Part shown: positions 21,387 through 64,000 of the stretch, piece after piece
How the letters are laid out: every line of letters starts with the position of its first letter
Position numbering within the stretch: the stretch's first letter is position 1
Assembly: GCA_000004985.1 (NCBI GenBank)
Contig: GG738875.1
From: Naegleria gruberi
Taxonomy: Eukaryota
Reading direction: 5' to 3' (one strand)
DNA: 64,000 nt
Program-made: the position numbers and the translations under genes
The notes under the pieces: generated by a model
What the model was told of the DNA's origin: nothing
The model's input: the letters and a program-made list of their open reading frames with translations, nothing else
Databases searched by the model: none

Positions 21387-21405
21387 AAAAAATGCAAACA
21401 TAAAT

Positions 21406-32889: not shown

Positions 32890-35800
32890 TTACTGCGTGC
32901 TGCCGAGAAGGGCAACACCTCTCAACTTCCACTTTGATTTATCTTCCAAACAATTAAGTTCAACATTGAAGATAAAGGTCAAGTCACTACGATTCTTATT
33001 TCTATACACTGGGCATGTGTAAGAGTTCTTCTTCTTTTCTTTTTCCTTATTCTTATCATTAGCAGCAGCAACATTTGAATCCTTAGCAAAGGCAGAAATG
33101 TGAATAACAGGTAATTTGCAAGTGAGGATTTTTGGTAGAGATTCAGTGAGTCTTGCTGAAGCCTTATCCCAACCAGCACCTTCCAAAGATAAACCATGGA
33201 TGTAAACACCTTCACTTGGAGGTTCAATTACATCTTTTTCTTCCATCTTGGTAACTTCAGTCTTGAGTACGACATCATCAAGAGCCCAACCTCTGGCTCT
33301 AGCTACTTCTTGTTGTACAGCTGTCAAGAAACCTTGTGGATTGTAGAATCCTGTTAATTTGAATGAGTTTGGTCTTCCTTCAGTGAGCCACTTGAATAAT
33401 TGGTCATGTCTGGTATCAAGTTCATTGAACCACAAACCAATAGTTTGGGACTCCCAAGAGAATTTCTTCCAAATATCTGGAACTCTACCATCGTAAATAT
33501 TATTCAAAATATCAGATAAACCAGCACTCATGATGATAGCACCATCAATGGCCAGCTTTAAATTGGTAAGATCGGCTCTTACCATACCAATAAGCTTTTG
33601 CAATCTATCAATTTCTTGACTAAGGAAAACGTTCAATGAATTTCTATCAAAACCACCTTGCTTCTTAATTTCAGAATCAACCATATCACGTTTGAAATCT
33701 GGTGGAAGTCCCTTCAAAAATTCATCAGCCTTCTTGAAAACGTTATCTTCTCTTGTTTCTCCGGCGCCACCAGCACTTTCCTTTGGTTGAACATCGAGGA
33801 TTGTTGACAATACTGACTTTGATTCATCAGTTCTGTAGTTAATATCAGCATTAGGGTGCAAGCCAAATACTTCAGGGTTATCAATTTGAGGAATTTGCTT
33901 TTCAATAAATTCGACAAATTGTTCCTTATCTACTTCAGTGATAACTTTTTCAGCACTAACGAAAGGAATTGTGTAACCATCATAAAATTTAAATTCAACC
34001 TTTGCAACATCAGGAGATAACCACTTTTCACCATAGGTCTTGAATAGTTGTCTGTCTCTTTCGTCAGTAATCTTACCACCATAGTGTACATCGCAAATCA
34101 TGTATCTAATAGTTGGCCAACTGATGGATCCCTTCTTGATATCATCACCTATTGAAGCAAAGTGATTTTGCATGAACATTAAGGAAGCACTCAAGTCAGC
34201 AAAGTTGAATTCATAAGGAATATTCCATCCCAAGTAACCAAACTTCTTTCTTTCAGAAACAACAGAGCTCAAGAAACACATTGTGTAAATGAGTGGTTTC
34301 CATTCTGGTCTCTTTGATGCATCTAACATATCTTGTGTGACCCATTCAAAGGCGTTCTTCATACCTGCCTTCACACCAACATCGCCTTCAAGAGTAAGCT
34401 TAATAGATGTTTGAAGTAAGCCAATTGGGAATTTTGGATGAGGTTCGCTAGTAACCCAAATTCTAAAGTCTGGATGTATATTTTCAGCATTCTTAATCAT
34501 ATCTTCAATAAGACTGATAAATTTCAAACCCAAGTGACAGTTTTGTAATAATACCCAACTACCAGTGGAGAAACCAGTTTGAATATATTCTGTAGCTCTT
34601 GGTTCCTGCCCTTGACCCATAGAAATGGCTAACACATCCTTCTTGTGGTGTCTGGCCAAGCCTTCAATTGCTGAAGTTGGATCAGAACCAGGACTCAACA
34701 AACAAACAAATGGCGTCTTGTTATCACTTTCCTTCCAGACGTTATCCAAGTTGATAGGTACAACGTCTAAGTACTTTTGGCCAAGTGCTGATCTAATATA
34801 TTGCATAGCAGCAAGGATGGTTCTGTCTTCTCTCAATGAACGAATAAGTAACAATTTTTCAAAATCTGTCAGGTTACTATATTCTGGGACCTTTGTTTCT
34901 TCAGGCTTTTCTTCGTCATAGAACTTCTTCCATAACTTGTCATTCTTGTGCATTTTTTCTGGCAATTGTTTGAATGTTTCAATAGAGAACAAGCTCATTA
35001 CATTCAACCAGTTAACATCAGGTAACCAGTCAACCTTTTGTCTAACTTTAGACAAGTCAAGCAAAGAACCTCCTCTTAATAGAGTACTGAATTGTTCAAA
35101 GTCTAATTTTCCTTCTCTTAATTGAATCTTACAAGTGAGCAATAGTAAGAATAAGAACTTGTGTCTCTTGAAAAGACCTCTGCTTGTGTATCTGTAAATA
35201 ATGAAGGTACATGATTCCTTAATATTAATAATTCTTTGAGAGGCAACAGGAGCAGGAGCTGCAGTCTTAATACCTCTATCAAAGAGAATCAAGAATTGAT
35301 TCAATGAAGTTTGGTACATAGGATTGACCAATGACATTTCAACAATCAAGAAATAGAGAACAGAACCTCTGATAGCAACATCTTCATATTCCATTCTAGC
35401 CTTATTGATTCTTTCCTCAGTATCTTTTGCATTTACAAGCTTTTCCTTAATTTCAGCTGCTTGCTTCTTTGTTTGGGCTAATACAGCAATCAATACTTCA
35501 TCTTCAATAAGAGACTTGTCTGATTCTTCAGAAAGTTTTGACAACAATTGGGCTTCAAGATCAGCCATGACTTGTTGGTTACCGTTAATATCTTCCAAAA
35601 TCTTTTCTCTTTGTTCTTCCAGTTCAGCCTTTTCTTGTTGGATAACATAACCCAAAAGCTGTTGTTCCAACCCTTTCATGGTAACTGTAAAGTCAATAAT
35701 GTTGCACTTAGCAAACAACTCAGGAGTAAAGTTAGGATTGGCAATCTTTGTTGTCAAGAACAACTTGAATCCATCATCGTAATCAATAGCCTTATCTTGA

Positions 35801-38800
35801 ATGATGATTTGCTTTTGTTTACCAGTCATAACGAATGACTTTTCCAATAGAGGATCAAGCATAGGATCAATTTCTTCTTCCACATTTTCAATGATAAGTG
35901 GACGACCATTTGAAATGGCATCTTCAAGTTGATTACGGAAGTACTTGTCAGTCAATCTAACAATTAAGAGACCTTGTTTTTCAAACTTCTTCTTCAACCA
36001 GGCTAAACCTTGTCCTTGAGGATCAACCAACAAAGCCCACTTAGAGGACTTTGTCAACATGATAGCATTTTGAATTGAGTGGGAGTCAGTTGGTAAGCCT
36101 TCAAGATTCCATGCACCTATTTGAGCTTCAGTAGTCAACAAATCTACAATCTTATCCTTCTTTTCATTTTTATCTTCTTCTGTTACAGGAATATCTTTTT
36201 CTTTACAATCAGCATAGAAACATTTGGAGAGCAAAATCTTACGGAATTCACTGTTAAAAGGTCCACAGTAAGAAATAAAAGCACAAGCGAGTGCAACATC
36301 ACCAGTTAACTTTCTCAATCTATCAGAGAATTGTTTGGATTGAATACCCCATCTTTCACTTTCTCCGCCAAGAGATGAAATAAGACTGGTTGCTTGTTCC
36401 ATGAACTTTCTTGTCTTTTCAGCATCTTCTTCGAGAAGTTCCTTTTTTCTTGTTTCTTCTTCGAAAACTCTTTGCTTTTCTTCAAATTCAGCGATGACCT
36501 TATTCAATTCTTCCATCTTCTTATTCAGTTGTGCAGTAGCGATAGCAAGAGTTTCTTCAGCTTCTCTAAGTCTTTCTCTCTTTGGTCTAACTTCCTTTTC
36601 TACGTTGTGATATTCAGCCATAGCACGAACCCAAGTACACAAATTTGAAGCAGCTGAACTTGATGATTTGATGATATCATATGTAAAGAATGAGTAATTA
36701 ATATAAGGCATCAACAATTCTACAGTTTCATCTGTAATTTCATCTTGCTTAAATTGTTGGATACCTTTCAAGAAACCAGCGTCAGCAGTCATCTTTTGAG
36801 CGTTAGAATATGAGTCTTCAATTATGGCACCCAATTTTTCGTCATTAATAATTTTAACATCATTGATTGGGAATTGTCTCAAGATGAGAACACCATCAAA
36901 TACGGTTTTAATGGCTTGAGCAGGAACTGTATAGGCCTTGACAGTTTGAATGTCTTTTGGTTGAATTGAAGCAACAGCCTTTTCAGCTCTTTCCAGGGCT
37001 GGTTTAGCTTTTTCTAAATCTGCTAAAGCTTCCTTCTTTTGAATTTCAACCAAGTTATGCTCCTTTTCAATAATATCCTTTTCTTTTTCTACTTCAGTCT
37101 TCTTAGCCAATGTCTTGGTCTTGCTTTCGGAAACTTCTTTCATGATCTCTTCAGCTTTGAGTTTGGCTTCATCCAATTTCTTTTCCTTAATCTTCAACTC
37201 AATTTGAAGCTTTTCAACATCTTCCTTTGCTTCATGAAGTTTAGAGAGACCCATAGCAACGTTCTTAGCTTCTTTATCAATTTCAGCATACTTAGCTCTG
37301 TATACGTCCTTATACAACTGTATAAATGATAGGTAAGACTTTGGAGTTGTGTGGACTGCTCTTCTGAATCTTTGGAAGTATTCAGAGGCGACTTCATTAA
37401 TCTTATTGTGTACTGCAGCCATGTGTTTAATCAAACTCTTCTTGACTTCAGGTGTACAATGAATTTCATAATCATCCAAGAATTTCTTGGCAACACTTGT
37501 CAAAGCTTCCTCTGGCCATGGGAAGAACCAATTTACAGAACATCCACTGATAAGAGCAGGGAACTTCAAAGCTCTGCTTCTGAACTTCTCACTAACTGGT
37601 GAGAAGCACAATACAATATGCAAATTATCTCTAACTCTGTTGATAAAGAATCTGTACAAATTATCATAAGTATCATTTCTTCCAATAGTAGTTGGGTATA
37701 AACGTTTAGCAACCATTCTCAAATCGTTAATGATAGAATCAATTTCTTCTTTCATGAATAGACCAGAGACTTCTCCTGAAGATAAGATACTATTAATATA
37801 TTCAAGGAAAGTTTCATCTTTGATTTCGTTATCTGTGAAAATGAAACTGACTGGTTTTCCTTGCAAACCAGCAAGCTTGAACATTTCTCTTAAATCTTCG
37901 AAGAAGTTGTTAGCGTTATAAGTCTTGTGAAGAACAATTTGCTTGATTTCATAGCCTGCAATAAATGAAGAAAGTCTTGTTAATGATTGTTTTCCTGAAC
38001 CACCAACACCGACTAATAAAGCATTACCTCTTGGCATACTCAGAATTCTTGAAATACGAACCAAGTGTTTGAGAGCCATGTCGAAGAGAACCAAGTCCAA
38101 TTTTTTAATATGCTTTCTTTCACCATTGTAATTCTTCATGAATCCTTCAACTCTTTGTCTGAGAGATTCAATTGACTCAATAGGTTCATAAATCTTTGGA
38201 GCTTCTTCAACTACTTCATCAGTGTCCTCATCAACAATAGGATCTCTCAAGAAATTGACAAAGTAATAATTATCAACCTTAGCTAATTCTCTGCCAAAGT
38301 ACTTTTCAGCTGTCTTAACAATGGAATCATCAAACCAAATCTTGTCTTTGACATCATTCAATCTGTCTGAGAAAACTCTACCACATTCGTGTTTCCACAA
38401 TCCCATCAAAATTTGTGGAGTTTTAACAACATCTGAAGGACAGTTCATTAAACCTTGATAGACTCTTGATAAATCTCTCAAGTTGAAAATGTAGTGGAAC
38501 TTCTTTGGAGTTGGAAGCATCTTATCTTGAGTCATTCTCCAGAATTCAATAGTAGCTGGAGTAATGCTTGATGCAAGCTTTACCATTTCATCAGAGAATC
38601 TTGTAGTATTATATCTACCTCTGATGACAGAACCGAAGATTTGGTCAATAGATGCTACAGTAGGAAGTGTAATATTCAAAATAGAGAAGTGTCTCTTCAA
38701 TCTTTCAGGAATATCATTCTTACCACCACCTGGATGGGACATGGCAGCAATAAATTGCAAATCTTCAATATGAATAAATTCACCAATCTTAGTTAAACTG

Positions 38801-41800
38801 TAGAATCCCTTTTCTTCTACAAGTTGTCTTACAATTTCGTTTGTAACTTGATCTCCCCAAGCATTGATTTCTGGCATGTTAATATCGTCAACAAAGACTA
38901 CCATCTTCTTGTTTTGAGGTGGTCCGTAAACTCTGAATCTCTTTTCAATATTGTCTTGAATAGTGAATTGGAAGATGTTGTGTGTTGTTGCAGAAGAAAA
39001 GTTAATCTTCTTATACATCATTGTTTCAGGGTCCAAATTGTACAAGTAGTTTTCAATTGTAACAGTCTTTGCTGTACCAGAACCACCTGTGAACAAGATA
39101 TCCCTCTTTTGTTTAGCCAAGAGTTCAATGATATAGGTTGTTCTTACAGAATCTGAAGTAGGAACGTACAAGGTACTGAATTCAAGAACATCATTTTCAG
39201 GATAATTCCAAGCAGGAATAACAGCCTTCCAATTCTTCCACTTCTTAGATGCAGGATCAACGAAAAAGTCATAAATATTTTCATCTTCACCCATATCAGT
39301 TGGGAAAATGGTTGCCTTGGATTTGATATAATCACTGAATTGTTTTCTCGCCTTTGATTCCAACAAACCACCAATAGACCAAGCAAAGGAATACCAGAAA
39401 AGCATTTCAATATGTTGCTTGTCTAATTTGATTTCTCCCTTATTAGAGTGTTCTTGAATCAACTGTGTAATAATACTGAAACAGGTCATAACTTGATTGA
39501 CTCTAACAACATTCATCACAGACTTAAGCTCTTTCTTAATATAATCAACACCATTGTCAATATGAGTTGTAAATAATGTTCTGACAATAGTTGTTTCTTC
39601 TTCCTTGAACGGAGCGACTGGTACAGAGTCACCAGTTGAAATAGTTTCATTAACTCTTCCTGCGTATCCTTTCAATCTTGATTCTAAAACAGGAGCCCAA
39701 CCAAGAACGGATTCAGAAATATAAATTTGACCAGCTCTAGAAACAGTAGCAGGAGAGGCATTATTCAAGTTTTCGACTTCGAAACACATCTTAACATCTG
39801 GGGACATTGCTAATCTATCACCGTTAGCAAGAGTCAATAACTTGTTATCATCCAAAACAGTGTTCAAATTTTCAATCCAAATAGCATCAACAGGACCATC
39901 ACAATTGATCCAAATGTGTTGCTTTCTTTGTTTGTTTGCTTGTTTCCACAAGTCAGAGAAAATACCGTCAGTCCATTCGTTTGCTACTACATCAAGTTTA
40001 CCAAACATTTGATTAGCTGTAATGGCCTTTGGATTCATTCTAAGTTGTTTATATGTTTTCTCTGGATTGAGAACACTGAGTGTCTTCAATAATATAGAAT
40101 AACAAGCACTTTTACCTGAACTGGCAGCACCGACCACCATGATACCGTGACGAACCAAACAAGTTTCATATAATTGGATCACTTTTTCCACCCAAGGTCC
40201 ATGATTTTCAAAACCATTTTGTTTGATTTGTTGTTCAAGTTGCTTTTCAAGTTCTGGAAAACGTCTCTTTTCTGCAACAATTGAAGGGAACAAGTCTTCT
40301 ACAAGAGAATTGAACAAGCTAACGTCTTCAGCGACCAATTTAGAAGTGTTCATGTCTCTGAGAGTTCTCATGAGCAAGAAGTGTTCTGATTTACCAATGT
40401 TAGCTCTCATTGTTTCACCAGCAGTTCTCAAAACTGACAAAATATTTCTGAGACCAAAATCGTAGTGAGCTTGTTTTGAAAGCTGTTGTTCACAAAGTCT
40501 GTACAAGACATCGAACTTCTTTGATAATGGTTCGTTCTTCTTGTAACCAGCAGCAGCTAACTTGACTCTAATAATAATTCTTCTGTCAGGAACCATCATA
40601 GTGACACCTCTAAACAAAACCTTCAAGTTTTCTGGAAGTTCTTGACGTCCTTGATAACCAGGATTCATAGTAATAAACATGGCTGTCTTGTCATTCAATT
40701 TACATGGTTTACCATCTGTAAAAACGAATTTCTTTTTACCATCTCTCAAGGTTGACAGAATGGATTGGACTTGTTGAGCAACGACAGACAACACTTCAAG
40801 TTCAATACGATTGAATTCGTCGAAACAACCCCAAGAACCACTTTGAGCCAAACCTCTAAAGATTTTACCCATAGCTCTATAATCCATTTGATCTGAACAG
40901 TTAAAGACAACTACATATTTACCAAGAGTTCTACCCAAATCTTTAACAGTTTCTGTTTTACCTGTACCGGCTGGACCAGCTGGAGCACCACCTAACTTCA
41001 AACCGATGGCTTGAGAGAGGGTAAGATAACATCTGTCGGTCAAAGGTGTAATGACCAGTCTTTCCTTACAACCCAAATATTCATAACAATATTCTTGATC
41101 GATATCTGCAATAGAAACAATACAAGTATCTTGATCTGGTTTCCAATAGAATCTGGCTTGTTTTTGCCAATCAAAATTAATAGTGTCCTTAACTCTATCT
41201 CTTAAAAGTTCACCGAAAACGTCACGTTGGTGAACTTGAATTGTAATAAGAGTTTCAACCTTTGTTCTTTCCAAAGGAGTCAATTCTCTTGTTGTTAAGG
41301 TTGTAAGTTCATCAAGAATAGTTGAAATTTTAGCATGGGTATTAGACATTGCTCTCTTATCAGACTTGGCTGAATTCAAAGCATTTTCACATTGTACTGT
41401 CCACACGAATTGAATACCAAGAATAGTAACTTGAGCAGGATACTTTTCAATGAAACTAGTGAGTGACATTGTGTTACATTCTTCAGCAGCATCTCTGACA
41501 ATGAAACGAAGAGTTCTTTGCATTTCTTCTTCGAGTTTTTGTAACCAATCTTCAACGTTACCTGCAGCTACAACAGCATCATTAAGAGGAACAATTTCTC
41601 CTTCAGGGGATTGCATACTCAAAATCTTGTTGTCTTGTCTAGCATCGAAAGTAACCTTTGAAATAGAGTCGAAAATTGTAATCAAAGCAGGTTGAATAGC
41701 ATGAGGATCAGATGATTGAGACAAGATTTCCAACAAAGCAGTGTCAGAGTTGAAATAGAATCTTGGGAAAATATCTCTCTTTTGTTCCAAATAACCAGCC

Positions 41801-44800
41801 AAAGCCTTTTGACATTCTTCCAAACTGATTTTAAGAGCTGGCAACATCTTCAACATTTCATTATCAAAGCAGAAACGAATAACGTTTGGAGTAGCAACAG
41901 CCTTTTGTAAAATCTTGACCCAGTTCTTATCAATGTGACTGAATTTCTTGTCTTCATGTGGCAATTGTCTCTTAATATCACCACTTGCAAATACAGGCTC
42001 AAGATAAAGCCATTGAGCTTGAACTTGTCTCCAAGCTTGAATATTTTCAGTTACAGATGTAAGCTTTTGCATCCATCCAGAGGCTAATTCTCTGAATGGT
42101 TCCAAATACTTTGAACCCATGATACCACCCAAGTTCATTTGGGCTTCTTCAAGTTGTTCCATCAATTCTTGAGTTTCAGCACCCTTCAAGATAATAGGAC
42201 CACGGTGTTTGTATTCAGCGAAAGACAATTCTCTATCCTTCCATTCTTCAGTAAGCTTTTTCAACTTGTCTTCAATTTCTAATTCCTTACGAGCTGAGTT
42301 ACAAACATCTTCGACTTCTTCCTTACATGCAAGTAAATTAGCTTCCAAAATGTCTTTAAGTTTAAACACATCGTCTTCCTTCTTAAATTGCTTCTTTGTG
42401 AGGGCTTCCAAACGTTCCCAATGTCTTTCTCTCATAGATGGATTCTTAAGTTGATCCAACAATGGTTGTAATTCTAAGAAATCTTCAATAGTTTGTCTCA
42501 AATTTTCATAAGCCTCAATGCCTTTTGCAGCTTTCTTTAAAGAATTACATTTAGTAGCAAACTTGTTGACTTCATCAGTAATGGCTTGGAAATCAAGTTC
42601 AGACCACAATAACTCTCCATAACTACCAACTTGTTTCTTAACCTTAATGTATAAATCGTACAAGGTGTCGTATAACTTTAACATCTTTTTCATCTTTGCA
42701 AGATCTGGGTATTCTTGCATTGGCAATCCGAATAATTTTTCACCTTCTCTGTACACTTCATATTTTCTTTCTCTTTCAGCATACAGTCTTTGGAATTTGT
42801 TCAGTCTTTCTCTAGCTTCTTCAGGTGCAATATCAGGTACTGCAGGCCCATTAAGTGTAAAATCTTTACAGAATTGCTCGACATCGGTTTTAAAGAGCTT
42901 TACCTCAGAAATTAATCTTGTCTTGAACCCACTTTGAACCTTAGAAATAGTTTCGTTAACTTTACTGGCCAATCTAGTCAATTTCTCCCACTTGAAAGCC
43001 AGATCGTAAACTTCATCAATTTCTTCCTTAGGAACATTTACAGAGTACTTTTTCAAAATAGAATATCTGTCAGCAATTTTAGAGAAATCATATTCAATCA
43101 TTGCTTCCCTAGATCTAATATCCATAACAGTACCCATGACAAATCTCAAGTCTTCAAGGTTTGCAATTTCTTGAGATAATCTCTTTGTAGATTCATCCAT
43201 CATTGTCAAATAGTTGTTCAATTCTTCCTTTGCACTTTCGTGAAGGTTATTGGCATATTGAACTTTCCATTGAATAACTAGCTGGAGTATGGAATTCTTC
43301 AATCCTTCTGCATCCAAAAAGAATGGACCCACAATACTTGATGTCTCCATTTGGCCAATCTCATTTTCAAGAACTGTGTATTTGTTCAACTCCTTTTCAA
43401 AATCATCAAGAGTTGGCTTCTTATCAACACATTTATCAACAAACTTTTTGTAGGCTGTTTGTTTGTCTTCCTTCCAGAGATAGCTGTACTTTTCGTATTT
43501 AGCCATAAATTGCTTAATTTCTTTTTGTAATAAAGCACAAGCTCCACTAGATGTCATTACCAGTCTAATAACATCACAGTCTCTGGATACTTCTCTGTTG
43601 AAGTGAATCTCTGGTTTGCACCTCCATGGTTGGATTGCCTTTGGAGATCCTAAAACAGATTGAACAACTCTGTCAATAGACTCTTGAATTTCTTCAAGGT
43701 TAGGTTTGAGAATTACATCAGGAGCTGCAAGTTCAAAACCAATTTTGAAAATTGGATCACCATGTGTGTCCTTTCTTGTTCTGCTTCTAAAGTAATGCAA
43801 AGACTTTACGACAGAATTCAGTAAGTTTTCTAAAATTGTTCTATGGTAAAATTCTTTAAGTCGAGTCAACAAATCTGGAGTAATTGTTAGTTTTGTTTCC
43901 TCGAATGGAAAACCAGAAATTACTTCTAAAATATCCTCTACGGCTCTTTCTATTTCAATACTCTTATTGTTGAGCTGTTCAGATAATTCTTTTGAGTATT
44001 TGTCTTGTGTATCTACAATTTGTTCAAGAGTGGAATCTTCTCTTTCAGGGAGCAAGAAAAATCCAGTATTTGATATATCCTTCAAATTTTTGTCGATTCT
44101 TCCATCGATAATATCATTAACCTTAAGTAATACATCTTCTAACTTTTCCAGTGTCTTGTGAATTCTCTTTAAATAAACTGAAATATTCATAGAAGTCCAT
44201 GAAAGAGTTGTAACACCAGGATCAATTTTCTTCTCAAGCTCGTCAATATGTGGTTCAAGTAATGGCTTTACATCATCTTTAACCATAGAAAGAATTCTTG
44301 CTCTTTCCTTCAAAACAAAGGATAACTCGTTGTAATATCCTTTGTATTTTTGTTCTTGAAGGAGAACAGTTTTACCCACATCTGGGATTTCAACTCCAAG
44401 TCTCATTAACCATTTGGCTTCTCTAATGAGTTGAATTATTTCAATATCAAAGTTAACAAAGAGTCTATCTTCAACCTTAATAATCAAAGTTGCCAATAAA
44501 CCGTCCTTTGCCTTTTCAACATATTTCTTCCAAGCTTCCAACCATGAGGTTTCAAACTTGATTAAACCCATCAAAACCTTGTTGTATGTTTTGATAATCT
44601 TCTTTGATTCCTTACTTTGCATAATAGTTGGGATTTGTTGGAATTTAGTCATTGGCTCCTCTATTCTTCTCATAAGTTGTCTACACCAAATAACTTTTCC
44701 GGCAACGGGTGGGGCATTTCTTACCAATGGTGGTTTAACTTTGAATTTTTCATATAGCTTTTGAATGTTATCAAGTTGGAATCCATAGTTGTGGAAAATT

Positions 44801-46392
44801 ACTGTATACTTATTTTCCAATTCAGTTTGAAGAGATTCTCTTTTCAGAATTGATTTAAACTTTTTAAGAACTTCTAAAGCTTGTTCACTGCTTGAAATAT
44901 TTTCAAACCATGTATTGATGAAAACCTGTAAGTATTGTTCAAGGTGAACAACTTTCTTGTTAAAAGCCATATATTCCTTATCGAAAGCATTTCTTTGATA
45001 ATCAAGAAGATTGGATGATTTTCTCTTAATTTCATCAACATATCCGAAAAATTGAGAAATAAGTTCATCCATACCTTCAATGTTATTACTCTTTAGTGAA
45101 TGGAATTGATCAATTGTCAAAAACAATTCAATAAGGGTTTCTATTCTTCTACAGAATAATCTCAATTTACCAAAGATTTTCAATTCATCAAAATCAAATT
45201 CTCTTCCCTTAGTTTGTTGAAGCTTAGACTTTTCAGCAAAATAACATCTTTCATATTCTTCTTTCAAGTCAATACAAGTCTTCAAACCTGATAATAATTC
45301 AGTAGTGTCTTGATCCCAAAGACGTCCTCTGTTCTCAATGTTATATTTACAGTTTTGAATGATTTGAAGACTGATCATAACCAATAATTTCTCCATCTTT
45401 TCCTTTGAACTATAATATTTAGCTATATTATACATCATACTAATATTCTTAATTAAACTTGGTAAGATTTCAATAATATGGGATGGAAGGGAGGAATACA
45501 AAGGCTCAATATATTTTTCTAATGATGTTAAATATTTAACATTGTCCTTTGCTTCGTTAATGGCATCTGTTAATGCAATATCACAATCGGCCCATTCTTG
45601 TGGCATTGAATACAGTTTCAAAGCGGAAAGAATTGCCTTATATTCTTCTCTCTTTAATTGTTCCATTACACTGTTCAATTTTAAGTATCTATTCTTCCAG
45701 TGTTCAATTTCTGCTGTTGGACCTAGTTCGTTATCTGTTAACTTATTGTCTTCAATCACTCTTTGAATCTCTTGAACCCATATCTTTACCAAATTATCGT
45801 AATAGTTCATCAGATTAATGTTTTCTTTAGCCTCCATAATTGCTGTTGGATTGTTTGGGATAAGTCTTTCTTGTGGAGGTCTTGTGAGTGTAATTGTTGG
45901 TGATTTTGATGTAAGAGCTTCTCCTAGTTTATCCGACATTCTCTTTGTTGTTTGTAAGAACTCTTTTGCTTGTTCTGAAGATGATTTACCCCAATCCATT
46001 TCCTCTGCACTGAACAGTGGAATGTAAACTTGGCCAAAGACTGTGTGTAAATTGTCTATCACATTTCCTTCAATAACACCACAAACAAGTGAATCAACAA
46101 TTTGAGCTTCTTTTGCAGGTACTGCTGCATTATTTCTTCTAAGAATATACAATACTTTTGGTGCCTTGTAAGGAAGATCGCTTGTTGTAGTTTTTAAAGA
46201 GAGGATGAATTCCCTGTTTTTTTCCACTACCGAAATCAAAAGAACATGGCATTGTTCATCTCCGTTCATAAAAGTATCGATACTCTTTTCATTTTCCTCT
46301 AGAAATTGTTGTATTTGAAGGGCCTTAACCTGAGGGAAGGACTCTTCAACTCTATCAGAAACGTATTTAGCTCGAGTATCCCTTATGACCAT
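32890..46392 (-). CDS. Axonemal outer-arm dynein heavy chain (about 4500 aa), intronless
   Basis: Single 13.5-kb ORF. AAA1 P-loop region [58 protein letters not shown] is of the outer-arm type (NCSDQMD…[17 protein letters not shown]). Further AAA2-AAA4 P-loops (GAASSGKS…, GGSGTAKT…, GVGGSGKQS). Coiled-coil stalk and C-terminal domain. The ORF-track start 46476 is TTG; first ATG is at complement(46390..46392), preceded by an A-rich leader. Confidence 0.95.
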   Translation of the reverse strand: [4500 protein letters not shown]

Positions 46393-46454
46393 TGTTTTAT
46401 TTTTTTTTAAATTGTAGTTTTTTCTTGTAGGTAATACAACGAAGAATTGGCTGT

Positions 46455-46465
46455 TTTGGCGCGCA
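46455..46465. promoter_or_regulatory. E2F-like TTTTGGCGCGC motif 63 bp upstream of the outer-arm dynein heavy chain ATG
   Basis: Sequence ctgTTTTGGCGCGCaatt matches the E2F consensus TTTSSCGC. Similar copies lie upstream of the second dynein gene (62348..62356) and the importin-alpha-like gene (19938..19948). Motif match only, no functional evidence. Confidence 0.25.
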
Positions 46466-46811
46466 ATTCTGCTCAAATTTCTGCTGTAGCTTTCTCACCT
46501 GAGACAACCCTTTTGAACTTTATGAGTCAAACAATAACGTGGTTTGATGTGGGTGTATTTCGAATTGTCAGCTTCATCATTTTCTATTTGATTTCAAAGA
46601 TTAAGGGTGACATCCTTGAAATAAATTATTTCATCATCCAAATATGTCAAAAAGATCCAAGTGTAAATGTTCGTTACCGAATGCATTGATCCGAAATCGT
46701 TACGTATTAAAACAAACTGGAAATCAATAATAGAACTGGACTAACCGTTTCTCAATAAAAACTCAACAAAAAAAAATCGTAAATTATTATCTGTAGCATC
46801 ATTAATGAAAA

Positions 46812-48473
46812 ATGAGCATAACGAGTGATGTGATTGATGCTGAATCTCTCTTATCGGATGAAGTCTTCGAGAATGAAACAATGAAAAGGGAAATAGAAGA
46901 GGGCAGATTAATTCCTGACCCTCTTAATGCTTCTCTAATTTCTGACAATCTTATGGACCTTAATAATACTAACAGCACAATTAGAAGACAACACCGTTCA
47001 TCATCAAGACAAAAATCCTTCAATTCTTCAATTAACCGATCAAGTATATCAAGAGCAGCAACACCTTCTATACACTCATTTCCGAGTAGATTTTCTGTTG
47101 AGAGTCCTGTTATTTCGTTTTCAAAAGGAGAACGTAAATACACCTATCTAAATCAAAGAGTTGACACTCCTGGTCCAATATATGAATCCATTCCAAAATC
47201 TGTGTCATCAAGCTTCTCCTTCCCAAAAGGAAAGAGATTTGTTGAAGAAGAATTAAAAATACTCCAACAAGCTCAAAAACCTCCTCCAACTGCCTATAAT
47301 CCAAAAGATCACATCAAGTACAGAACTGATCCATCTTTCAGTTTTGGTTCGAGAACTCCGACCCAAGAATACAGATCAGATTCACCAGGACCAATTTACA
47401 ATCCAACTGATGTTCCTTCAAAGAGATTTTCAAAATCTTCAACAACATTTGGTGCTGGAGAAAGATCTCTTAAAATGAGTGATGGGCGAAGTGGGTCTCC
47501 TCCACCAGGAGCTTATAATCCTTCCTTAATGGATTCTAAAAGGAATATTTCTTTTTCAATTTCAAAGAAAGAAGGTAGGTTTTAAATGAGGTTTAAAACA
47601 AAACATTTTTTAGAAAATTATATTTACTTTGGAGATAAATTAAGTGCAAATAAGGAGGTGAGTATTAATTGGAATTTATTTATTAAAGAAAATGAATAGT
47701 CAATGAGAGTACCTGGACCAGTTTATGATCCATCCTATCGATTGTCAATTACATCATCACCTTCATTCTCTTTTGGAAGAAGAACACCACTGCCCAGTGA
47801 TCAAGTACTTCTTGAACATCCTGGGTTAACAGATTACAACAAACAATTCGTTTCTCATTCTTTTTCCCTTCAGGGCAAAGATAGAGAAGTTGACCCAAAT
47901 ATTACATATAATGCTCCAAGAGCAAGATTTTTGGGAGATCAATTTTTGAACGAGAACCTGGGAAGAGCATCTCCAGGACCAAAGTATAATATAACTCAAA
48001 GTTTTGTCATTCCATCCAAGAGACATGTTGAGGAAGATCACATCCTGACATTCAAAGCTAAAGAAAAGAAAAAGAAGGACAAACCGATTCCTACACAAGT
48101 TTATCCTGGTTATAGTATTTCCAAGGCTTCTGCTCAAATTACTGAAAGTCCTGGGTGTGTTTACACTCCAAAAACAGATTTCTCGTCACGAGTCCCAAGA
48201 GTATGCAGCCCTGTAATGAAAGTAGCAAAACCAGTGGATAACAGAAAAGCTCCTGAAATTTATCCTCAATTAAGAAATCCAAATCTTACAGCACTTTCAA
48301 ATGTCCCAACTTCAACAGTACCAAAGTTCATAAGAACTGGAAATACTGTTGGTGTTAGAACTCCTCCTCTGATTTCCCATTCTCCTGGTCCAGTTTATAA
48401 AGTTGACTGGGAATCATTGGAAAAGAATGCAAAGAAAGGTTTACCTGGAGGTAAGTTTGGAGGCCTTTCGTAA
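46812..48473 (+). CDS. ODF3/SHIPPO-like sperm-tail PG-rich repeat (STPGR) protein; proposed join(46812..47574,47614..47657,47700..48473) with 44-nt micro-exon
   Basis: More than ten degenerate SHIPPO/STPGR repeats of the form [ST]PGP.Y.P (TPGPIYES, SPGPIYNP, SPPPGAYNP, VPGPVYDP, SPGPKYNI, SPGCVYTP, SPGPVYKV). The two halves are in the same frame, separated by 117 nt. The ORF-track segments are joined in frame only through a 44-nt exon (47614..47657), flanked by GTAGGT…TTTTAG and GTGAGT…GAATAG introns. A possible further GTAAGT donor at 48451 is unresolved. Confidence 0.6.
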
Positions 48474-56617: not shown

Positions 56618-57343
56618 ATGAGCACAACAACAGCAACTATTGGAGAAACCCCTCAAGTTGGATCTACCACAACTGTTGGTAGTCAACTTCCAAGAACAAG
56701 AGTTAATCAACCATTCCTCAAACTATTTCTTAATGTAACCTGGTGGGAACCATTCTTTGAGATGGCAGTTGGAGCCATTATGTTATTGCTTCCATCATCA
56801 TGGATTGTTCTTACAACATTTATGAGCCAACCCTTACTTGACTCTATTGGTTTCTCTCGTACTGACAATCCAGTAATTCTTGGAGTTATTGCATTATCAC
56901 AACTTAAGGATTTCATTACATTCATGATTAGAAGCTTTGGATTTATGGTTTTTGTGTTTGGAGTTATTCATCACTTGTTATTGAGAATCTGCTTTAAAGA
57001 ATTGGCTTTCAATGATCATAAGGTATTAATTGAGAAGGTTCCAATGTTTCAATATATTGTTACTGCATTAGCCCTTGGTGATTTGATACATATTATTTTG
57101 GTTTGGAGCCATGCAATGTATTCAACTGCATCAGCTGTAATTAGAAGTGTGGAAGGTGGTATTTCAAAGGAAGTGGAAAATATAGAAGGCTGGTATGGAG
57201 TATTATACCTCATTATTCCAACTTTCATATCCATGGCATTATTTGCAATGAGACTTACCTATTTATCATTCTATGCACCTTCTTCAAATTTGAGTGGAGT
57301 AAAGTATTCAGAGGTTCAAACAAGAAGAGTTCATGCTGAATAA
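56618..57343 (+). CDS. Hypothetical multi-pass membrane protein (241 aa, about 4-5 TM)
   Basis: ATG at 56618. Hydrophobic helices (AVGAIMLLLPSSWIVLTTF; FMVFVFGVIHHLLL; LYLIIPTFISMALFAM). Weak, unverified resemblance to small ER membrane proteins. Function unknown. Confidence 0.45.
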   Translation: MSTTTATIGETPQVGSTTTVGSQLPRTRVNQPFLKLFLNVTWWEPFFEMAVGAIMLLLPSSWIVLTTFMSQPLLDSIGFSRTDNPVILGVIALSQLKDFITFMIRSFGFMVFVFGVIHHLLLRICFKELAFNDHKVLIEKVPMFQYIVTALALGDLIHIILVWSHAMYSTASAVIRSVEGGISKEVENIEGWYGVLYLIIPTFISMALFAMRLTYLSFYAPSSNLSGVKYSEVQTRRVHAE

Positions 57344-57478
57344 TTATAGACCTTAATAAACAAATTTATCAAAAGATTATGCTCAAGTTTTTCATAATTT
57401 TTTTTGGTGAATTTTCTAAAACGAAACAATTTAGCTGACAAATCTTTAAAAGATATTTGTGATAGCATTATTTGTTTA

Positions 57479-59134: not shown

Positions 59135-59602
59135 TATTTATATTTTAATAATACAAAAGTGATTGGCTTGATGTGCTAAAATAATTACTATCAACAATAA
59201 GATTGGTTTTTAAAGCCAAACAGGTGTGTGATCGCAATTTTTTTTAAAAATAAATTTTAAAAATAGTTTGATGTAATTAATTTTTTAATATTAGGGTAAA
59301 GTTCTTTTGTTTTGTAAACATATGATGTCTGGCGTTTGTTGGCTTTTCAATCCATTAAAGAACTTTGCTTTCATCTTGTTTTTATTGGTTCATTCTCGTT
59401 GTATTATGCAAGTTGAACTCTATCAAATCAAAGTAAAGCAATTTTACAAAATTAAAAGATTCATTTAACATTAGTTAAATCCCAGTTGTGCGATTTCTTT
59501 TGTTATTGATAATTATTTATTTGTAGTGTTATTATTGGATCGGAATAGAACACGTGTTTGGCGTAGAAGAAAATAAATCAAAAAATTTGCAGCGAGATCA
59601 TC

Positions 59603-62344
59603 ATGCCTATGAAAAAGACAAACCACAGGCTGAAGTGGAGTGTGGGAAAATATATTATATTCATAACAATATTAATAGTAGCTTTTTCTATTATAATATC
59701 ACATCAAGAACAAGTTAATCAAAAGAAAAAATCTAATAATCAAAATTCGGAAGAGGAAGAACCAAAGTTTATAATTTTGAAAGATGGTGATGAATCTGAG
59801 CTTGAAAACCTTCCTGAAGAGTTTAAACAAAAAATCAAGGAAGCTTTATTGAAAGTTAAGAGTAATATTAATTTTGAACAAGCTCCCCCAGAATCAAATC
59901 CTTTAAATAATAATATGCCTGATCAACAACAGACTAAAACTTCCCAAACAACCAAACCAACACCTCAAGTTGAAGAGACATTGGATACATCAATGTTAAG
60001 TGATATTTCTATTCCTTTGGATGAGATAACAATTCCAACAGAATATTCCTCAACATTGGATGAAGAGTTCACTAGAATTAAGAGAATGAAAGAATTAAAA
60101 CTTGTAACAAGAAGAAAATTCATGTCTAAAAAACTCAATGATTTGAGAAAACAACAAGAAAATGAAATTGATGGAAAGAAGGATTCTACAGAAAAATTAT
60201 TAGAAGCAAGAATGATTTTGGATCCCGATCTTCCAGAGTATGACAAAGAAGCTGTTGAAAAGGCAATTGGAATTTATCTTTCTGTTGTTAAAGAAGATCC
60301 AACAAACCCACTTGTATTGTATAATTTAGGAACAGTATATAAGGTAAGATTTTCTGAGAATATTAATGACTAATTGTTTAATTAGAGTGAAAAATTTGGT
60401 GTTAGAGACTTTTCCAAGAGTAAAATGTACTACATTTTGGCAGCTTATTTAGGTAGTCAAATGTCACAATTCGAGGTTGCTCTATTGTATAATAATAACT
60501 TGATTTCAAGCAAGGATTTAGAAAATGTGAAAAGTTTAATGATTGAGATATTTGGACCAGTTGAAACAATGAAAAAGCAAGTCAAACTAATTTATGAGAA
60601 GATTCCAAAATCTATTGAAAATCCTGAAACATTATCTTTGTTGAATCTTTTCTATAGCTCTTTAGGAGGAAATACTGGAGCAAATATTGCTTTGGGATAT
60701 AGACATATGTTCGGACATGGCGTACCAAAATCTTGTAAAACAGCTAGCTATTATTATTCGAAAGCAGCTTCTGATGTTATTGTCGAGTTTGAGGATAGCA
60801 GAATGCCTCTTATTGATCATGTAAGACTTAATGATGAGAGTGCTATTCAAAATAAGCAATCACAAGAGGATATTATGGAATATTACCAATATTCTGCTAG
60901 TAAGGGATCATCTTCATCGATGCTTATTTATGGTTATGCTAATTTATATGGTATAAGAGGTGTCGAGCAAAATGGAGAAGTTGCTAGAAGATTATTTGAA
61001 CAAGCTGCTGAGGCAGGAGAACACGAGGCTTTTGGCGCTCTTGGTAATATGTTCCTCAAGGGTGCTGAAGGTATTCCAAGAAATAATGAGACAGCTTTCA
61101 AGTACTTTAAGAAGGGAGCAGACAAAAAAGATCCATCCTCATTAAATGGGCTTGGAAAGATGTACCTTGAGGGATCAAATGATGAACAAGGAAATATCAT
61201 TCTTGAAAAGAATTTTGAATTGGCAGCTGGATATTTCAATAAGAGTGCATCATTGGGCAACTCTGAAGCTCATTATAATTTGGGTCTTTTATATTTGGAT
61301 GGTAAGGGTGTAAAGAAATCATTTAAACAAGCAATGCAACATTTTGCGATTTCAGCTCAACATGGTCAAGTTCTTGCCAAATATCAACTTGCCAATATGT
61401 ATCTTCATGGATTGGGAACTAATCCAAATTGTGAAATTGCTGTTAAATTCTTAAAATCTGTTGTTGAGAAGGCCTCATGGACTTCAGTAATGGAGAGTGC
61501 TTTTGAAAAGTTTGTATCAGGAGAGGATCAACATACTGCTCTTCTACTTTACCAACATGCTGCAGAAATGGGTATTGAAATAGCACAAGCTAACATTGCT
61601 TTCATGTATGACAGAGGATATGGATTTGAGGAAATTTCCAGTGGATTATCTGAAGAGGAAAGTGAATTGTTAAAATTCAAGGGAGCTATCAAATGGTATC
61701 AACAAGCAGCTGAACAAGGTAATGTTGATGCGTATGTCAAAGTTGGGGATTATTACTATTATGGTTCATCTGCTTTATCATCTTCAAACTCTTCTGTTGG
61801 AAGTTTAGAACAATCATACGAAAAGAGTATTTATTTCTATAGAAGAGCTAAGGAATTGAACAATGCTCAAGCAATGTTTAACTTGGGTTATATGCATGAA
61901 CATGGAAAGGGACTTCCACAAGATTTCCATTTGGCTAAAAGATATTACGACATGGCATCTGATGCTGATCCAGTAGCTTATGTTCCAGTTATTTTGGCCT
62001 TGGGTAAATTATATGGTCATTGGGGATTTTATTTAGTTAAAGATTATGTAACAAATATTTTCAATGAAATGCCAAGTAGTGAAATAGATGAAACCTCAAA
62101 CTCTGATATTTCAACTTGGTTGGTCAATCTCATAATTGAACATGAGGATTACTTTTTGGCTATTCTAATTGGTGGTCTAGCCCTACTTATTTTTGTCAGA
62201 CATGTAGTGAATAGTCAAGCTAATGCAAGACCAAGAAGACGTAGAGTAGTCACTACCACTGAAAACACTCAACAAGAAGATAACGTTAGAAACCAACAAC
62301 CAGAAGAGCAAGAAGAACACAATCAGCACGAACACCAAGAATAA
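59603..62344 (+). CDS. SEL1-repeat protein, SEL1L/Hrd3-like ERAD component with C-terminal TM anchor; join(59603..60343,60386..62344), 42-nt intron
   Basis: N-terminal signal/anchor (YIIFITILIVAFSIIIS). About 10 Sel1 repeats (…GANIALGYRHMFGHGVPKS…, …ALGNMFLKGAEGIPRN…, …GLGKMYLEGSND…, …NLGLLYLDGKGVKKS…, …LANMYLHGLGTNPN…, …NLGYMHEHGKGLPQD…). C-terminal TM (LAILIGGLALLIFV) followed by a basic/acidic tail. GTAAGA donor at 60344 and TTAATTAG acceptor ending 60385. Confidence 0.8.
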
Positions 62345-62347
62345 ATA

Positions 62348-62356
62348 TTTGGCGCC
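62348..62356. promoter_or_regulatory. E2F-like TTTGGCGCC motif in the 50-bp spacer between the SEL1L-like stop and the second dynein ATG
   Basis: atatTTGGCGCCtttttt, 40 bp upstream of ATG 62396. Motif match only. Confidence 0.25.
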
Positions 62357-62395
62357 TTTTTTAAACTACAATACAACACCACAAACGCAAAAAAA

Positions 62396-64000
62396 ATGAG
62401 AGAAGATACAACTGAGAATTACAGTGAGGATGCCTTTATTGGTCATACATCGCTGTCAAATCTTCATCTTGTACTTCAAAATATATTTCTTCCATTCTTA
62501 TCAGATCAAAACGGACAAGAGGATGAAAATAATAATACAAACAATCAAAAATATGGTGAAACCTTACAAAATATACATACCCTAAATTCTGATTTCATAT
62601 CACATTTGAAAAAGTTTAGTGGACAAGTTGGATATACAGTTAAACAACTCTCTGGAGAAGTATTGATTGATTTACCGGAAGTGCATTTGGATGATCCCAA
62701 GACAGCAGCAGAGGATGAACATGTAAGTTTTTTATTTGATACTTGATGAGCTAATTATTAATACAATTAGATTGTTCAAAAATTGGAAGCATGCCTTAGT
62801 AGTTGGACTCAATCTATTAACTCCCTTTTAGAAAAGGTTGTGAATCAAGAAAGAGAAGGAGAGGTAAGCATTATTTGAAATTAAAATTCTAAAAAAATGA
62901 TTTAAAAAGGGACCTCTCTCCGAAATTGATTATTGGAGAACAAGACACGCTTCACTAGGAACAATTTGGGAATCACTAAATAGTAAAACTGTAAAGAATG
63001 CTATAGAAGTGCTCCGAATTTATGATGCACAATTATTACCTGGTTTTGATGACCAATTTCAAGAATTAACTAAATTATACATGGAAGCAAAGGAAAATGT
63101 AAAGTTTTTACAAACTCTTGAACGTCACTTTAAAAACATTTCACAAGCAAGAGGTTCATTAACACCAATTTCCGATACACTTCCTTCTATGATGAATGCC
63201 ATCAGAATGGTTTGGGTAATTAGTAGATATTATAATACAGACAAGAGAATGATACCTCTTATGGAATTAATTGCTCAAGAAATTTGCTTGAAAGTATCAC
63301 AATATATTAACCTAGAGACTAGTTTAGATGTAAATAATATTTTTAATAATCCGTACAAGTTAGCAGAAAGACTTCAAGAGGGAGCTGAAGTTTTACAAAA
63401 ATGGAAAACTGTATGTTTAAAAATTTAAATTTATTTATTAATATTGCTCTAGACCTACTTCCATGTAAGAGAAAAAATAGAAAATACAAGTAAGGATGAA
63501 CGTTGGCATTTTGAAAAGGACTCACTTTTTGAACAATCTGATTACATGTCAGAAAGATGTTACGAGTTGAAAGAATTAGCAATTTTTATTGGAAGATATA
63601 AATCATTTTTAGGTCCAGAATTGAGAAGTATGTTTTTAATTCTATCATTTTTTTAAATTTTATTTTAATCCATTAGATATTACTGGTGAAAGTGGTATTG
63701 ATGAAATTTTGGATAGATTGAAAGATCTTGTTACACCATTCCAACAAAATGCTAATTTAATTTTTAATAGAAATGCACAAATGAAGTGGATTGAAATATT
63801 TAAACAATTTAAAGAAAATTCAGAGGAAATTAAAATACAAACCAACTCATTTATTGATAAGAGTTTCAAGAAATTGAGATCAGCAGAGGGTGCCTTTAGG
63901 CTTTTACAAGATGTTAGAAAGATTCACAGCCAAGACAAAGACTCTATAAATCAAAAGATGATGCTCAAGTCGATAGATATTCTTGAAAGATATGGAGAAG
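62396..64000 (+). CDS. Second dynein heavy chain gene, N-terminal (DHC_N1) region, 3'-truncated by window edge; join(62396..62722,62771..62863,62910..63410,63453..63627,63677..>64000)
   Basis: Spliced product …GPLSEIDYWRTRHASLGTIWESL…IEVLRIYDAQLLPGFDDQFQELTKLYMEAKENVKFLQTLERHFKNI…MNAIRMVWVISRYYNTDKRMIPLMELIAQEI…TYFHVREKIENTSKDERWHFEKDSLFEQSDYMSERCYEL… is the conserved dynein heavy chain N-terminal region 1. Four introns of 42-49 nt: GTAAGT, GTAAGC, GTATGT, GTATGT donors with TTAG/AAAG/CTAG/TTAG acceptors. All frames are consistent. ATG at 62396 after an A-rich leader. Confidence 0.8.

What the first reader, a model, noticed from the sequence alone, without database searches (positions are those of the whole stretch)
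32890..64000. Two axonemal dynein heavy chain paralogues 16 kb apart with opposite gene architectures (13.5-kb intronless versus intron-dense)
The minus-strand outer-arm-type DHC (32890..46392) is one uninterrupted 4500-codon exon. The plus-strand DHC that starts at 62396 has four 42-49-nt introns in its first 1.5 kb. In a genome where most genes carry 0-2 introns, a 13.5-kb intronless gene next to a heavily spliced paralogue suggests different evolutionary histories, for example retroposition of one copy, or intron loss driven by very high expression. The second gene runs off the window, so its class (inner arm, outer arm or cytoplasmic) is open.
Basis: partly seen in the sequence, partly recalled or inferred. 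Interest (0 to 1): 0.6.

Follow-up and report, generated by a model that had tools for sequence, protein, structure and literature searches.

The report
Two ordinary Naegleria flagellar dynein genes
The window is Naegleria gruberi DNA with two ancient, different classes of flagellar dynein motor gene; both are built around a giant uninterrupted exon and differ only by four tiny introns at the start of one of them, which is ordinary for an intron-poor genome.

Summary
The window is Naegleria gruberi NEG-M: 11 window-encoded proteins match its deposited proteins exactly.

**Gene 1**, 32890..46392 (-), is one 4500-codon ORF. It belongs to the outer-arm gamma / DNAH5 dynein heavy chain (DHC) class. 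Its N. lovaniensis orthologue is also intronless.

**Gene 2** starts at 62396 (+). It is the inner-arm I1/f 1-alpha / DNAH10 class. Its four GT..AG introns (48, 46, 42 and 49 nt) are real:
- homology runs ungapped across every exon junction;
- N. lovaniensis has all four at identical positions;
- Willaertia has two of them.

"Intron-dense" is a wrong extrapolation. In N. lovaniensis and Willaertia nothing interrupts the gene after about 1.3 kb, and a single 12.3-kb exon runs to the stop.

The two proteins are only 32% identical. They are deep paralogues, not a parent and its retrocopy.

In a related heterolobosean the pattern is reversed. There the outer-arm gene has two 5' introns and the I1-alpha gene has none.

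The contrast therefore reflects lineage-specific turnover of a few 5'-proximal introns in genes that are otherwise intron-free.

Verdict: ordinary, low interest.

The parts
32890..46392 (-). Complete CDS (4500 codons plus stop) of the outer-arm dynein heavy chain, gamma / DNAH5 class (the ODA-alpha family of Wickstead and Gull). It is a single exon.
   Evidence: ORF. Pfam finds DHC_N1, DYH2-5-8_CC, DHC_N2, the AAA modules, the MT stalk and Dynein_C. PDB phmmer gives 4060 bits to Chlamydomonas gamma HC 7kzm_C and 4033 to human DNAH5, against 2456 for the next class. It is collinear with intronless N. lovaniensis P0071.
46393..46811 (.). A 419-nt spacer between the outer-arm DHC and a head-to-head gene with a weak, sub-threshold SHIPPO/PG-rich-repeat match (46812..48473, +).
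   Evidence: ORF list, sequence and Pfam SHIPPO-rpt match (E=2e-4, no stretch passing alone). The same head-to-head arrangement occurs in N. lovaniensis locus L002.
62396..62722 (+). Exon 1 (327 nt) of the inner-arm I1/f 1-alpha (DNAH10-class) DHC.
   Evidence: The N. lovaniensis orthologue's exon 1 is 312 nt.
62723..62770 (+). Intron 1: 48 nt, GTAAGT..TAG, phase 0.
   Evidence: The position is conserved in N. lovaniensis and Willaertia.
62771..62863 (+). Exon 2 (93 nt).
   Evidence: N. lovaniensis has an identical 93-nt exon.
62864..62909 (+). Intron 2: 46 nt, GTAAGC..AAG, phase 0.
   Evidence: It is present in N. lovaniensis and precisely absent in Willaertia.
62910..63410 (+). Exon 3 (501 nt), the core of the DHC_N1 domain.
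   Evidence: N. lovaniensis has an identical 501-nt exon. It is 67% identical to the 4445-aa heterolobosean protein P0187.
63411..63452 (+). Intron 3: 42 nt, GTATGT..TAG, phase 0.
   Evidence: It is present in N. lovaniensis and precisely absent in Willaertia.
63453..63627 (+). Exon 4 (175 nt).
   Evidence: The exon has the same length in N. lovaniensis.
63628..63676 (+). Intron 4: 49 nt, GTATGT..TAG, phase 1.
   Evidence: The position is conserved in N. lovaniensis and Willaertia.
63677..64000 (+). Start of exon 5, which runs off the window. By orthology it should continue for about 12.3 kb to the stop codon without further introns.
   Evidence: The N. lovaniensis last exon is 12,258 nt and the Willaertia one 12,285 nt.

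Best explanation
These are two anciently diverged classes of axonemal dynein heavy chain gene in Naegleria gruberi. One is the outer-arm gamma / DNAH5-type motor. The other is the inner-arm I1/f 1-alpha / DNAH10-type motor. They are linked by chance, 16 kb apart, with about a dozen unrelated genes between them, and are transcribed away from each other.

Both follow the same plan: at least 12 kb of coding sequence in one uninterrupted exon. The only architectural difference is a cluster of four tiny spliceosomal introns in the first 1.1 kb of the I1-alpha coding sequence.

Across heteroloboseans the presence of such 5'-proximal introns varies by lineage and by gene:
- Naegleria: outer-arm gene 0, I1-alpha 4.
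- Willaertia: I1-alpha 2.
- A more distant relative: outer-arm gene 2, I1-alpha 0.

The contrast is therefore the stochastic outcome of intron turnover at the 5' end of genes that are otherwise intron-free.

The most likely mechanism is inferred, not shown. It is recombination of the gene with reverse-transcribed cDNA. That process removes introns precisely and preferentially from the 3' side, so only the most 5' introns survive, and sometimes none do.
For: Organism:
- 11 of 14 window-encoded proteins looked up are exact matches to deposited N. gruberi proteins (EFC431xx).

Classes:
- Gene 1 scores 4060 bits against Chlamydomonas gamma HC and 2456 for the next class.
- Gene 2 scores 306 bits against Chlamydomonas I1 1-alpha, 129 against 1-beta and at most 113 against outer-arm chains.
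- The full-length N. lovaniensis orthologue P0322 turns up alongside named DNAH10 and 1-alpha proteins in a search with a DNAH10-class profile.
- The two classes are 32% identical.

Architecture:
- N. lovaniensis outer-arm gene: 13,476 nt for 4491 codons, so no introns.
- N. lovaniensis I1-alpha exons: 312/93/501/175/12,258 nt. Willaertia exons: 297/768/12,285 nt.
- The DNA alignment shows conserved exons, diverged introns and exact absence of introns 2 and 3 in Willaertia.

Reversed pattern in relatives:
- L005 outer-arm gene has two 5' introns and then a 12.7-kb exon. L006 I1-alpha reads in a single frame.
- L008 outer-arm gene also has two 5' introns.
- L007 I1-alpha is one 4445-codon ORF.

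Linkage:
- Both genes lie on the same N. lovaniensis contig, 26.7 kb apart.
Against: - The direction of change is not resolved. Within the sampled heteroloboseans, simple parsimony fits gain of introns 1 and 4 in the Naegleria+Willaertia ancestor, and of introns 2 and 3 in Naegleria, as well as it fits repeated loss.
- None of the four positions coincides with an intron of the intron-rich Capitella DNAH10 gene in this region. There is therefore no positive evidence that they are ancient.
- The rest of the N. gruberi I1-alpha gene lies outside the window. Its intron-free state is inferred from orthologues.
- No transcript data were available.
- Other long genes next to the N. lovaniensis orthologues (1701 and 1847 aa) have about 6-7 frame breaks spread along their length. 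A general 5' bias alone therefore does not explain why the DHC genes are so intron-poor.
Confidence: 0.72

Rival explanations
1. The outer-arm gene is a processed retrocopy. An mRNA was reverse-transcribed and reinserted, which gave an intronless gene, while the neighbouring gene kept its original structure.
For: The gene has no introns at all over 13.5 kb.
Against: - It is not a copy of the neighbour: 32% identity and a different ancient class.
- The intronless state and the flanking gene order are shared with N. lovaniensis.
- No poly(A) tract follows the stop codon.
- The neighbour is itself about 92% one exon in the orthologues.
- An ancient retrocopy that replaced its parent cannot be told apart from cDNA-mediated gene conversion.
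Confidence: 0.04
2. Selection keeps giant flagellar motor genes free of introns and of cryptic splice sites. Naegleria must make 13-kb dynein mRNAs quickly and accurately during the roughly one-hour change from amoeba to flagellate. The retained 5' introns are tolerated or useful, for example through intron-mediated enhancement.
For: - There are at least 12-kb uninterrupted exons in all nine heterolobosean DHC genes examined.
- There are 0 strong donor hexamers in the 13.5-kb sense strand, against 10.9 +/- 2.7 expected and 9 on the antisense strand.
- Neighbouring long non-dynein genes in N. lovaniensis carry about 6-7 frame breaks along their length.
- The rapid de novo flagellar programme of Naegleria is established knowledge.
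Against: - No expression data were examined here.
- Introns of about 45 nt add negligible transcription time.
- Donor-hexamer avoidance is also seen, more weakly, in other window ORFs (4 against 10.5 expected). It may therefore be a genome-wide property.
- This idea is compatible with the best explanation rather than exclusive of it.
Confidence: 0.2
3. The four introns are lineage-specific gains at the 5' end of an ancestrally intronless I1-alpha gene. The two 5' introns of the outer-arm gene in the other heterolobosean clade are likewise gains.
For: - Introns 1 and 4 are seen only in Naegleria and Willaertia, and introns 2 and 3 only in Naegleria.
- Two more distant relatives have none.
- No position is shared with Capitella DNAH10.
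Against: - Introns 2 and 3 are adjacent and are missing together and precisely in Willaertia. That is the classic signature of a single cDNA-mediated loss event.
- Only one intron-rich outgroup was compared, and only over about 470 residues.
- The intron sequences show no repeat or transposon-like similarity to one another (inspection).
Confidence: 0.2

Closest known systems
Chlamydomonas outer-arm gamma heavy chain (PDB 7kzm_C), human DNAH5/DNAH8 and Tetrahymena Dyh3
   Same: One alignment stretch covers residues 112-4498 at 4060 bits (4033 bits to DNAH5). It has the full DHC domain set including the DYH2-5-8 coiled coil, and a similar length (4500 against 4485 aa).
   Different: Identity to animal DNAH5/8 orthologues is about 42-45%. 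The gene is a single exon.
Chlamydomonas I1/f 1-alpha heavy chain (PDB 8glv_Cn) and human DNAH10
   Same: The 473-aa N-terminus aligns to residues 224-664 of the Chlamydomonas chain at 306 bits (290 bits to DNAH10). This is far above I1-beta (129) and the outer-arm chains (at most 113).
   Different: The Naegleria-type protein lacks about 190-200 N-terminal residues found in Chlamydomonas and human. This shorter N-terminus is shared by N. lovaniensis, Willaertia and the Percolomonas-like P0187 (4445-4451 aa). Only the first 473 aa lie in the window.
Naegleria lovaniensis C9374_005806 and C9374_005820 (and N. fowleri FDP41_005431)
   Same: These are direct orthologues, 86% and 87% identical. 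They lie on the same contig and have the same intron content (0 and 4) at the same positions.
   Different: The spacing is 26.7 kb instead of 16 kb, because extra genes lie between them, for example a 1701-aa gene.
5'-biased intron distribution of intron-poor eukaryotes, explained by reverse-transcriptase-mediated intron loss (Fink 1987; Mourier and Jeffares 2003; cited from my own knowledge)
   Same: All retained introns lie within the first ~1.3 kb of 13-kb genes. Intron absence is precise, and two adjacent introns are absent together in Willaertia.
   Different: The direction of change (loss or gain) was not established. Other long Naegleria genes keep dispersed frame breaks.

Membership tests
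Dynein heavy chain (AAA+ motor) | N-terminal tail domains DHC_N1 and DHC_N2, six AAA modules, a coiled-coil stalk with microtubule-binding domain, and a C-terminal domain. | tested here: met
   For gene 1, Pfam finds DHC_N1, DHC_N2, AAA_6, AAA_7, AAA_8, MT, AAA_9, Dynein_heavy, AAA_lid_11 and Dynein_C, all far above cut-off. The AAA1 P-loop GPAGTGKT is visible in the translation.
Dynein heavy chain (AAA+ motor) | The same domain set for the second gene. | tested here: inconclusive
   Only DHC_N1 (271 bits) lies in the window. The full domain set is seen in the N. lovaniensis orthologue P0322, which is 87% identical over the shared 464 aa.
Outer-arm gamma / DNAH5-DNAH8 class (ODA-alpha family) | Closest to named members of this class by a clear margin over every other DHC class. 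| tested here: met
   4060, 4033 and 3544 bits to Chlamydomonas gamma, human DNAH5 and Tetrahymena Dyh3, against 2456 for the best other class. Database hits at 42-45% identity are DNAH5/8, and other classes reach at most about 35%. No tree was built.
Inner-arm I1/f 1-alpha / DNAH10 class | Closest to named 1-alpha/DNAH10 members by a clear margin over 1-beta/DNAH2 and the outer-arm classes. | tested here: met
   306 and 290 bits to 8glv_Cn and DNAH10, against 129 for 1-beta and at most 113 for outer-arm chains. A profile that includes the window fragment retrieves named DNAH10 and 'Dynein-1-alpha heavy chain, I1 complex' proteins. This rests on the tail only; the motor domain is outside the window.
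Processed retrogene | Poly(A) remnant at the 3' end, flanking target-site duplication, a new genomic location, and an intron-bearing parent gene elsewhere. | tested here: not met
   No A-tract follows the stop codon. Flanking gene order is shared with N. lovaniensis. No closer paralogue appeared in the searches. Target-site duplications were not searched for. An ancient event cannot be excluded.
cDNA-mediated (reverse-transcriptase) intron loss pattern | Precise intron removal, joint loss of adjacent introns, and surviving introns concentrated at the 5' end. | tested here: inconclusive
   The pattern is met: exact absence of adjacent introns 2 and 3 in Willaertia, and all introns within the first 1.3 kb in five genes. 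The direction of change (loss rather than gain) is not established, and no position is shared with Capitella.

The most novel reading that the evidence does not exclude
Heterolobosean axonemal dynein genes are under specific selection to be free of introns and of cryptic 5' splice sites (0 strong donor hexamers against about 11 expected in 13.5 kb). The reason would be the need for fast, error-free production of 13-kb mRNAs during the amoeba-to-flagellate switch. The conserved 5' intron cluster of the I1-alpha gene would then act as a regulatory device, such as splicing-gated or intron-enhanced expression.
Probability: 0.12. Interest if true: 0.45.

Novelty: already known. Interest (0 to 1): 0.12.

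Why it matters
It matters little beyond annotation.

- The genome is published and the dynein classes are textbook families.
- A 5'-clustered intron distribution is a known property of intron-poor genomes.
- The useful outcomes are a clean gene model for a 13.5-kb single-exon outer-arm dynein gene, which does not appear as an exact sequence in the public protein collection, and the class assignment of the second gene.
- There is also a small comparative data set: nine heterolobosean DHC genes, each with an uninterrupted exon of at least 12 kb and variable 5' introns. This could feed a study of intron loss against gain.

Tried and rejected
- Exact look-ups of the 4500-aa product, of Cbf5 and of N. 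gruberi P0161 in the contig index found nothing. The N. gruberi assembly seems not to be in that index, so the window could not be extended directly.
I used exon 3 alone instead.
- The first homologue search with the 473-aa fragment returned only short fragments (264-812 aa) and no Naegleria protein.
- I reached the full-length orthologues by an indirect route: the exon-3 search gave P0187, and a profile built on it gave P0322 and P0323.
- Attempts to list introns from donor and acceptor motifs alone were too noisy for an exact census. I used only about 17-18 high-confidence introns, which gives roughly 0.44 per kb and agrees with the published genome average.
- The N. gruberi genome paper itself is not in the paper library. 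The statistics come from the comparative table in PMC8296547.
- tRNA and Rfam scans of the window found nothing.
- Comparison with Capitella DNAH10 found no shared intron position, so the age of the introns stays open.
- I considered whether the upstream ORF 60425..62344 supplies the N-terminal ~190 residues that are missing relative to Chlamydomonas. I rejected this. That ORF is a Sel1-repeat gene with its own stop codon. It is conserved as a separate gene in N. lovaniensis and Willaertia. The short N-terminus is also shared by all the heterolobosean orthologues.
Full report
**Source of the window.** Eleven of the fourteen window-encoded proteins I looked up are exact matches to deposited Naegleria gruberi proteins on one 396,166-bp scaffold (ten plain ORFs and one spliced model; among them EFC43104, 43110, 43113, 43114, 43185, 43186 and 43188-43191). 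The base composition (about 33% GC) agrees with the published 33% for strain NEG-M (PMC8296547).

**Gene 1, 32890..46392 (-).**
- The six-frame ORF list shows one open frame at 32890..46476. The first ATG is at 46392, giving 4500 codons.
- Pfam finds the complete dynein heavy chain architecture.
- Against solved structures the best matches are Chlamydomonas outer-arm gamma (7kzm_C, 4060 bits, one stretch covering 112-4498), human DNAH5 (4033) and Tetrahymena Dyh3 (3544). The best chain of any other class scores 2456.
- The closest database protein is N. lovaniensis C9374_005806 (86% identity, 4491 aa). N. fowleri FDP41_005431 sits in the same 90% cluster.
- The N. lovaniensis gene spans 13,476 nt for 4491 codons plus stop, so it is also intronless.
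- A global alignment of the two proteins has only seven indels, the longest 9 aa, and the same MVIRD start. No in-frame "stealth" intron is hidden in the N. gruberi ORF.
- The sense strand contains none of the donor hexamers used by the confirmed introns (GTAAGT, GTATGT, GTAAGC). Synonymous-codon shuffles give 10.9 +/- 2.7, none of 1000 shuffles was as low, and the antisense strand has 9.

**Gene 2, from 62396 (+).**
- The four proposed introns exist as described: 62723-62770, 62864-62909, 63411-63452 and 63628-63676. They are 48, 46, 42 and 49 nt long, and all are GT..AG.
- Splicing gives 473 residues that match Pfam DHC_N1.
- These residues align without gaps across every junction to Chlamydomonas 8glv_Cn, the I1/f 1-alpha chain (306 bits), and to human DNAH10 (290). 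I1 1-beta scores 129 and the outer-arm chains at most 113. The open class question is answered: inner-arm I1/f 1-alpha.
- The ATG at 62396 is plausible although Chlamydomonas and human have about 190 more N-terminal residues. The heterolobosean orthologues are all 4445-4451 aa and start at the same place.
- The upstream ORF is a separate Sel1-repeat gene.

**Recovering the rest of gene 2 through orthologues.**
- A library scan with exon 3 found a 4445-aa relative, P0187.
- A profile of P0187 plus the window fragment then returned N. lovaniensis C9374_005820 (P0322) and Willaertia magna ABK040_001243 (P0323).
- P0322 is 87% identical to the window fragment. It lies on the same contig as the outer-arm orthologue, 26.7 kb away.
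- Mapping the proteins on their loci gives exons of 312/93/501/175/12,258 nt in N. lovaniensis and 297/768/12,285 nt in Willaertia.
- The window's exons are 327/93/501/175/324 or more. All four introns are therefore positionally conserved within Naegleria, and introns 1 and 4 also in Willaertia.
- A DNA alignment shows well-conserved exons, diverged intron interiors and exact absence of introns 2 and 3 in Willaertia.
- After about 1.3 kb there is no further interruption in either orthologue. "Intron-dense" was an extrapolation from the 5' end.

**Relationship of the two genes.** N. gruberi outer-arm gamma is 32% identical over its full length to N. lovaniensis I1-alpha. That is the same as its identity to DNAH10 of animals. 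These are deep paralogues of different classes. [quoted passage not shown] Neither is a retrocopy of the other. The flanks of gene 1 are syntenic with N. lovaniensis, and nothing like a poly(A) remnant follows its stop codon.

**Wider comparison.**
- Two contigs of one metagenomic heterolobosean (JGI 3300062347, both 37% GC) carry both genes.
- Its outer-arm gene has two 5' introns (53 and 51 nt) followed by a 12.7-kb exon.
- Its I1-alpha gene reads in one frame across residues 19-4447. This is the reverse of N. gruberi.
- A second relative (GCA_037189345.1, 81% identical to the first) also has two 5' introns in its outer-arm gene. The first lies at the same codon and phase.
- A Percolomonas-like contig has I1-alpha as one 4445-codon ORF.
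- All nine genes examined have an uninterrupted exon of at least 12 kb.

**Is the intronless state beyond chance?**
- N. gruberi averages 1.7 exons per gene and 894 nt per exon (PMC8296547), which is about 0.46 introns per kb. My rough count in the window (17-18 introns in about 41 kb of non-dynein CDS) agrees.
- A uniform Poisson model gives P of about 0.002 for 13.5 kb without an intron.
- In N. lovaniensis the neighbouring 1701-aa and 1847-aa genes show about 6-7 frame breaks spread along their length, read from stop-free segments.
- The DHC genes are therefore truly intron-poor. This is true of both genes, so it does not create a contrast between them.

**Mechanism.**
- The pattern has three features: precise absence of introns, joint absence of adjacent introns, and survivors only at the extreme 5' end.
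- This is what cDNA-mediated intron loss predicts.
- I could not establish the direction of change. Parsimony among the sampled heteroloboseans allows gains equally well.
- None of the four positions coincides with an intron of the 62-intron Capitella DNAH10 gene in the aligned region.
- Selection for intron-free giant flagellar transcripts is compatible with the data and is hinted at by the donor-hexamer avoidance. It remains untested.

**Verdict.** The coordinates and the individual observations are accurate. The headline contrast and the retroposition idea are not supported. What is present is an ordinary pair of known dynein genes in a published genome.

Noticed in passing
window 32890-46392 (-): The coding strand has no strong 5' splice-site hexamer at all (GTAAGT, GTATGT or GTAAGC): 0 observed against 10.9 +/- 2.7 in synonymous-codon shuffles, with 9 on the antisense strand. 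Other window ORFs show a weaker depletion (4 against 10.5). This suggests selection against cryptic donors.
   Followed up: partly
window 31841-32739 (-) and 32890-46392 (-): The exact 4500-aa dynein product and my 281-aa EF-hand model are both absent from the 15-billion-protein collection. By inference from accession numbering, only one deposited accession (EFC43187 / D2VIZ5) is left for these two minus-strand genes. No near-identical N. gruberi protein came back in the homologue search. The public model here is probably different or missing.
   Followed up: partly
window 46393-48473: A gene with a weak SHIPPO / sperm-tail PG-rich repeat match (Pfam E=2e-4, no stretch passing on its own) lies head-to-head with the outer-arm dynein gene, 419 nt apart. 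The same arrangement occurs in N. lovaniensis. If it is a flagellar protein, the two genes may share a bidirectional promoter.
   Followed up: no
window 62344-62396: Only 51 nt separate the stop codon of the Sel1-repeat gene from the ATG of the I1-alpha dynein gene. The adjacency and the tiny spacer are conserved in N. lovaniensis (73 nt) and Willaertia (63 nt). The dynein promoter or 5' UTR must therefore overlap the upstream gene.
   Followed up: partly
window 31841-32739 (-): An EF-hand protein gene (two EF-hand pairs joined by a Ser/Pro-rich linker, one 53-nt intron) lies directly downstream of the outer-arm gamma-class gene, as it does in N. lovaniensis. In Chlamydomonas the gamma chain binds the EF-hand light chain LC4 (PMC4415241). 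Any functional link here is untested.
   Followed up: no
L005 and L006 (JGI metagenome 3300062347); L008 (GCA_037189345.1): A related heterolobosean shows the reverse pattern: two 5' introns in its outer-arm gene and none in its I1-alpha gene. The first outer-arm intron is shared, at the same codon and phase, with a second relative of 49% GC.
   Followed up: yes
L003 32945-33548 (N. lovaniensis): A gene whose product matches PF12323 (HTH_OrfB_IS605, the TnpB/Fanzor-type domain) lies about 9 kb downstream of the I1-alpha dynein gene.
   Followed up: no
window 19983-22608 (+): ORFs 19983..21386 and 21310..22608 overlap in different frames. This could be one gene with a weak-donor intron, two tightly packed genes, or a frameshift. 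It was not resolved.
   Followed up: no
L001 (ENA ERZ929261, contig k127_575971): A 4.2-kb metagenome contig encodes the N. gruberi MPP-beta protein exactly and a near-identical Cbf5. This strain, or a very close relative, is therefore present in that environmental or contaminated sample.
   Followed up: no
L002 2223-7727 and L003 23696-29635 (N. lovaniensis): Two long non-dynein genes (1701 and 1847 aa) show about 6-7 frame breaks spread over their whole length, read from stop-free segments. Naegleria long genes are therefore not generally intron-free.
   Followed up: partly
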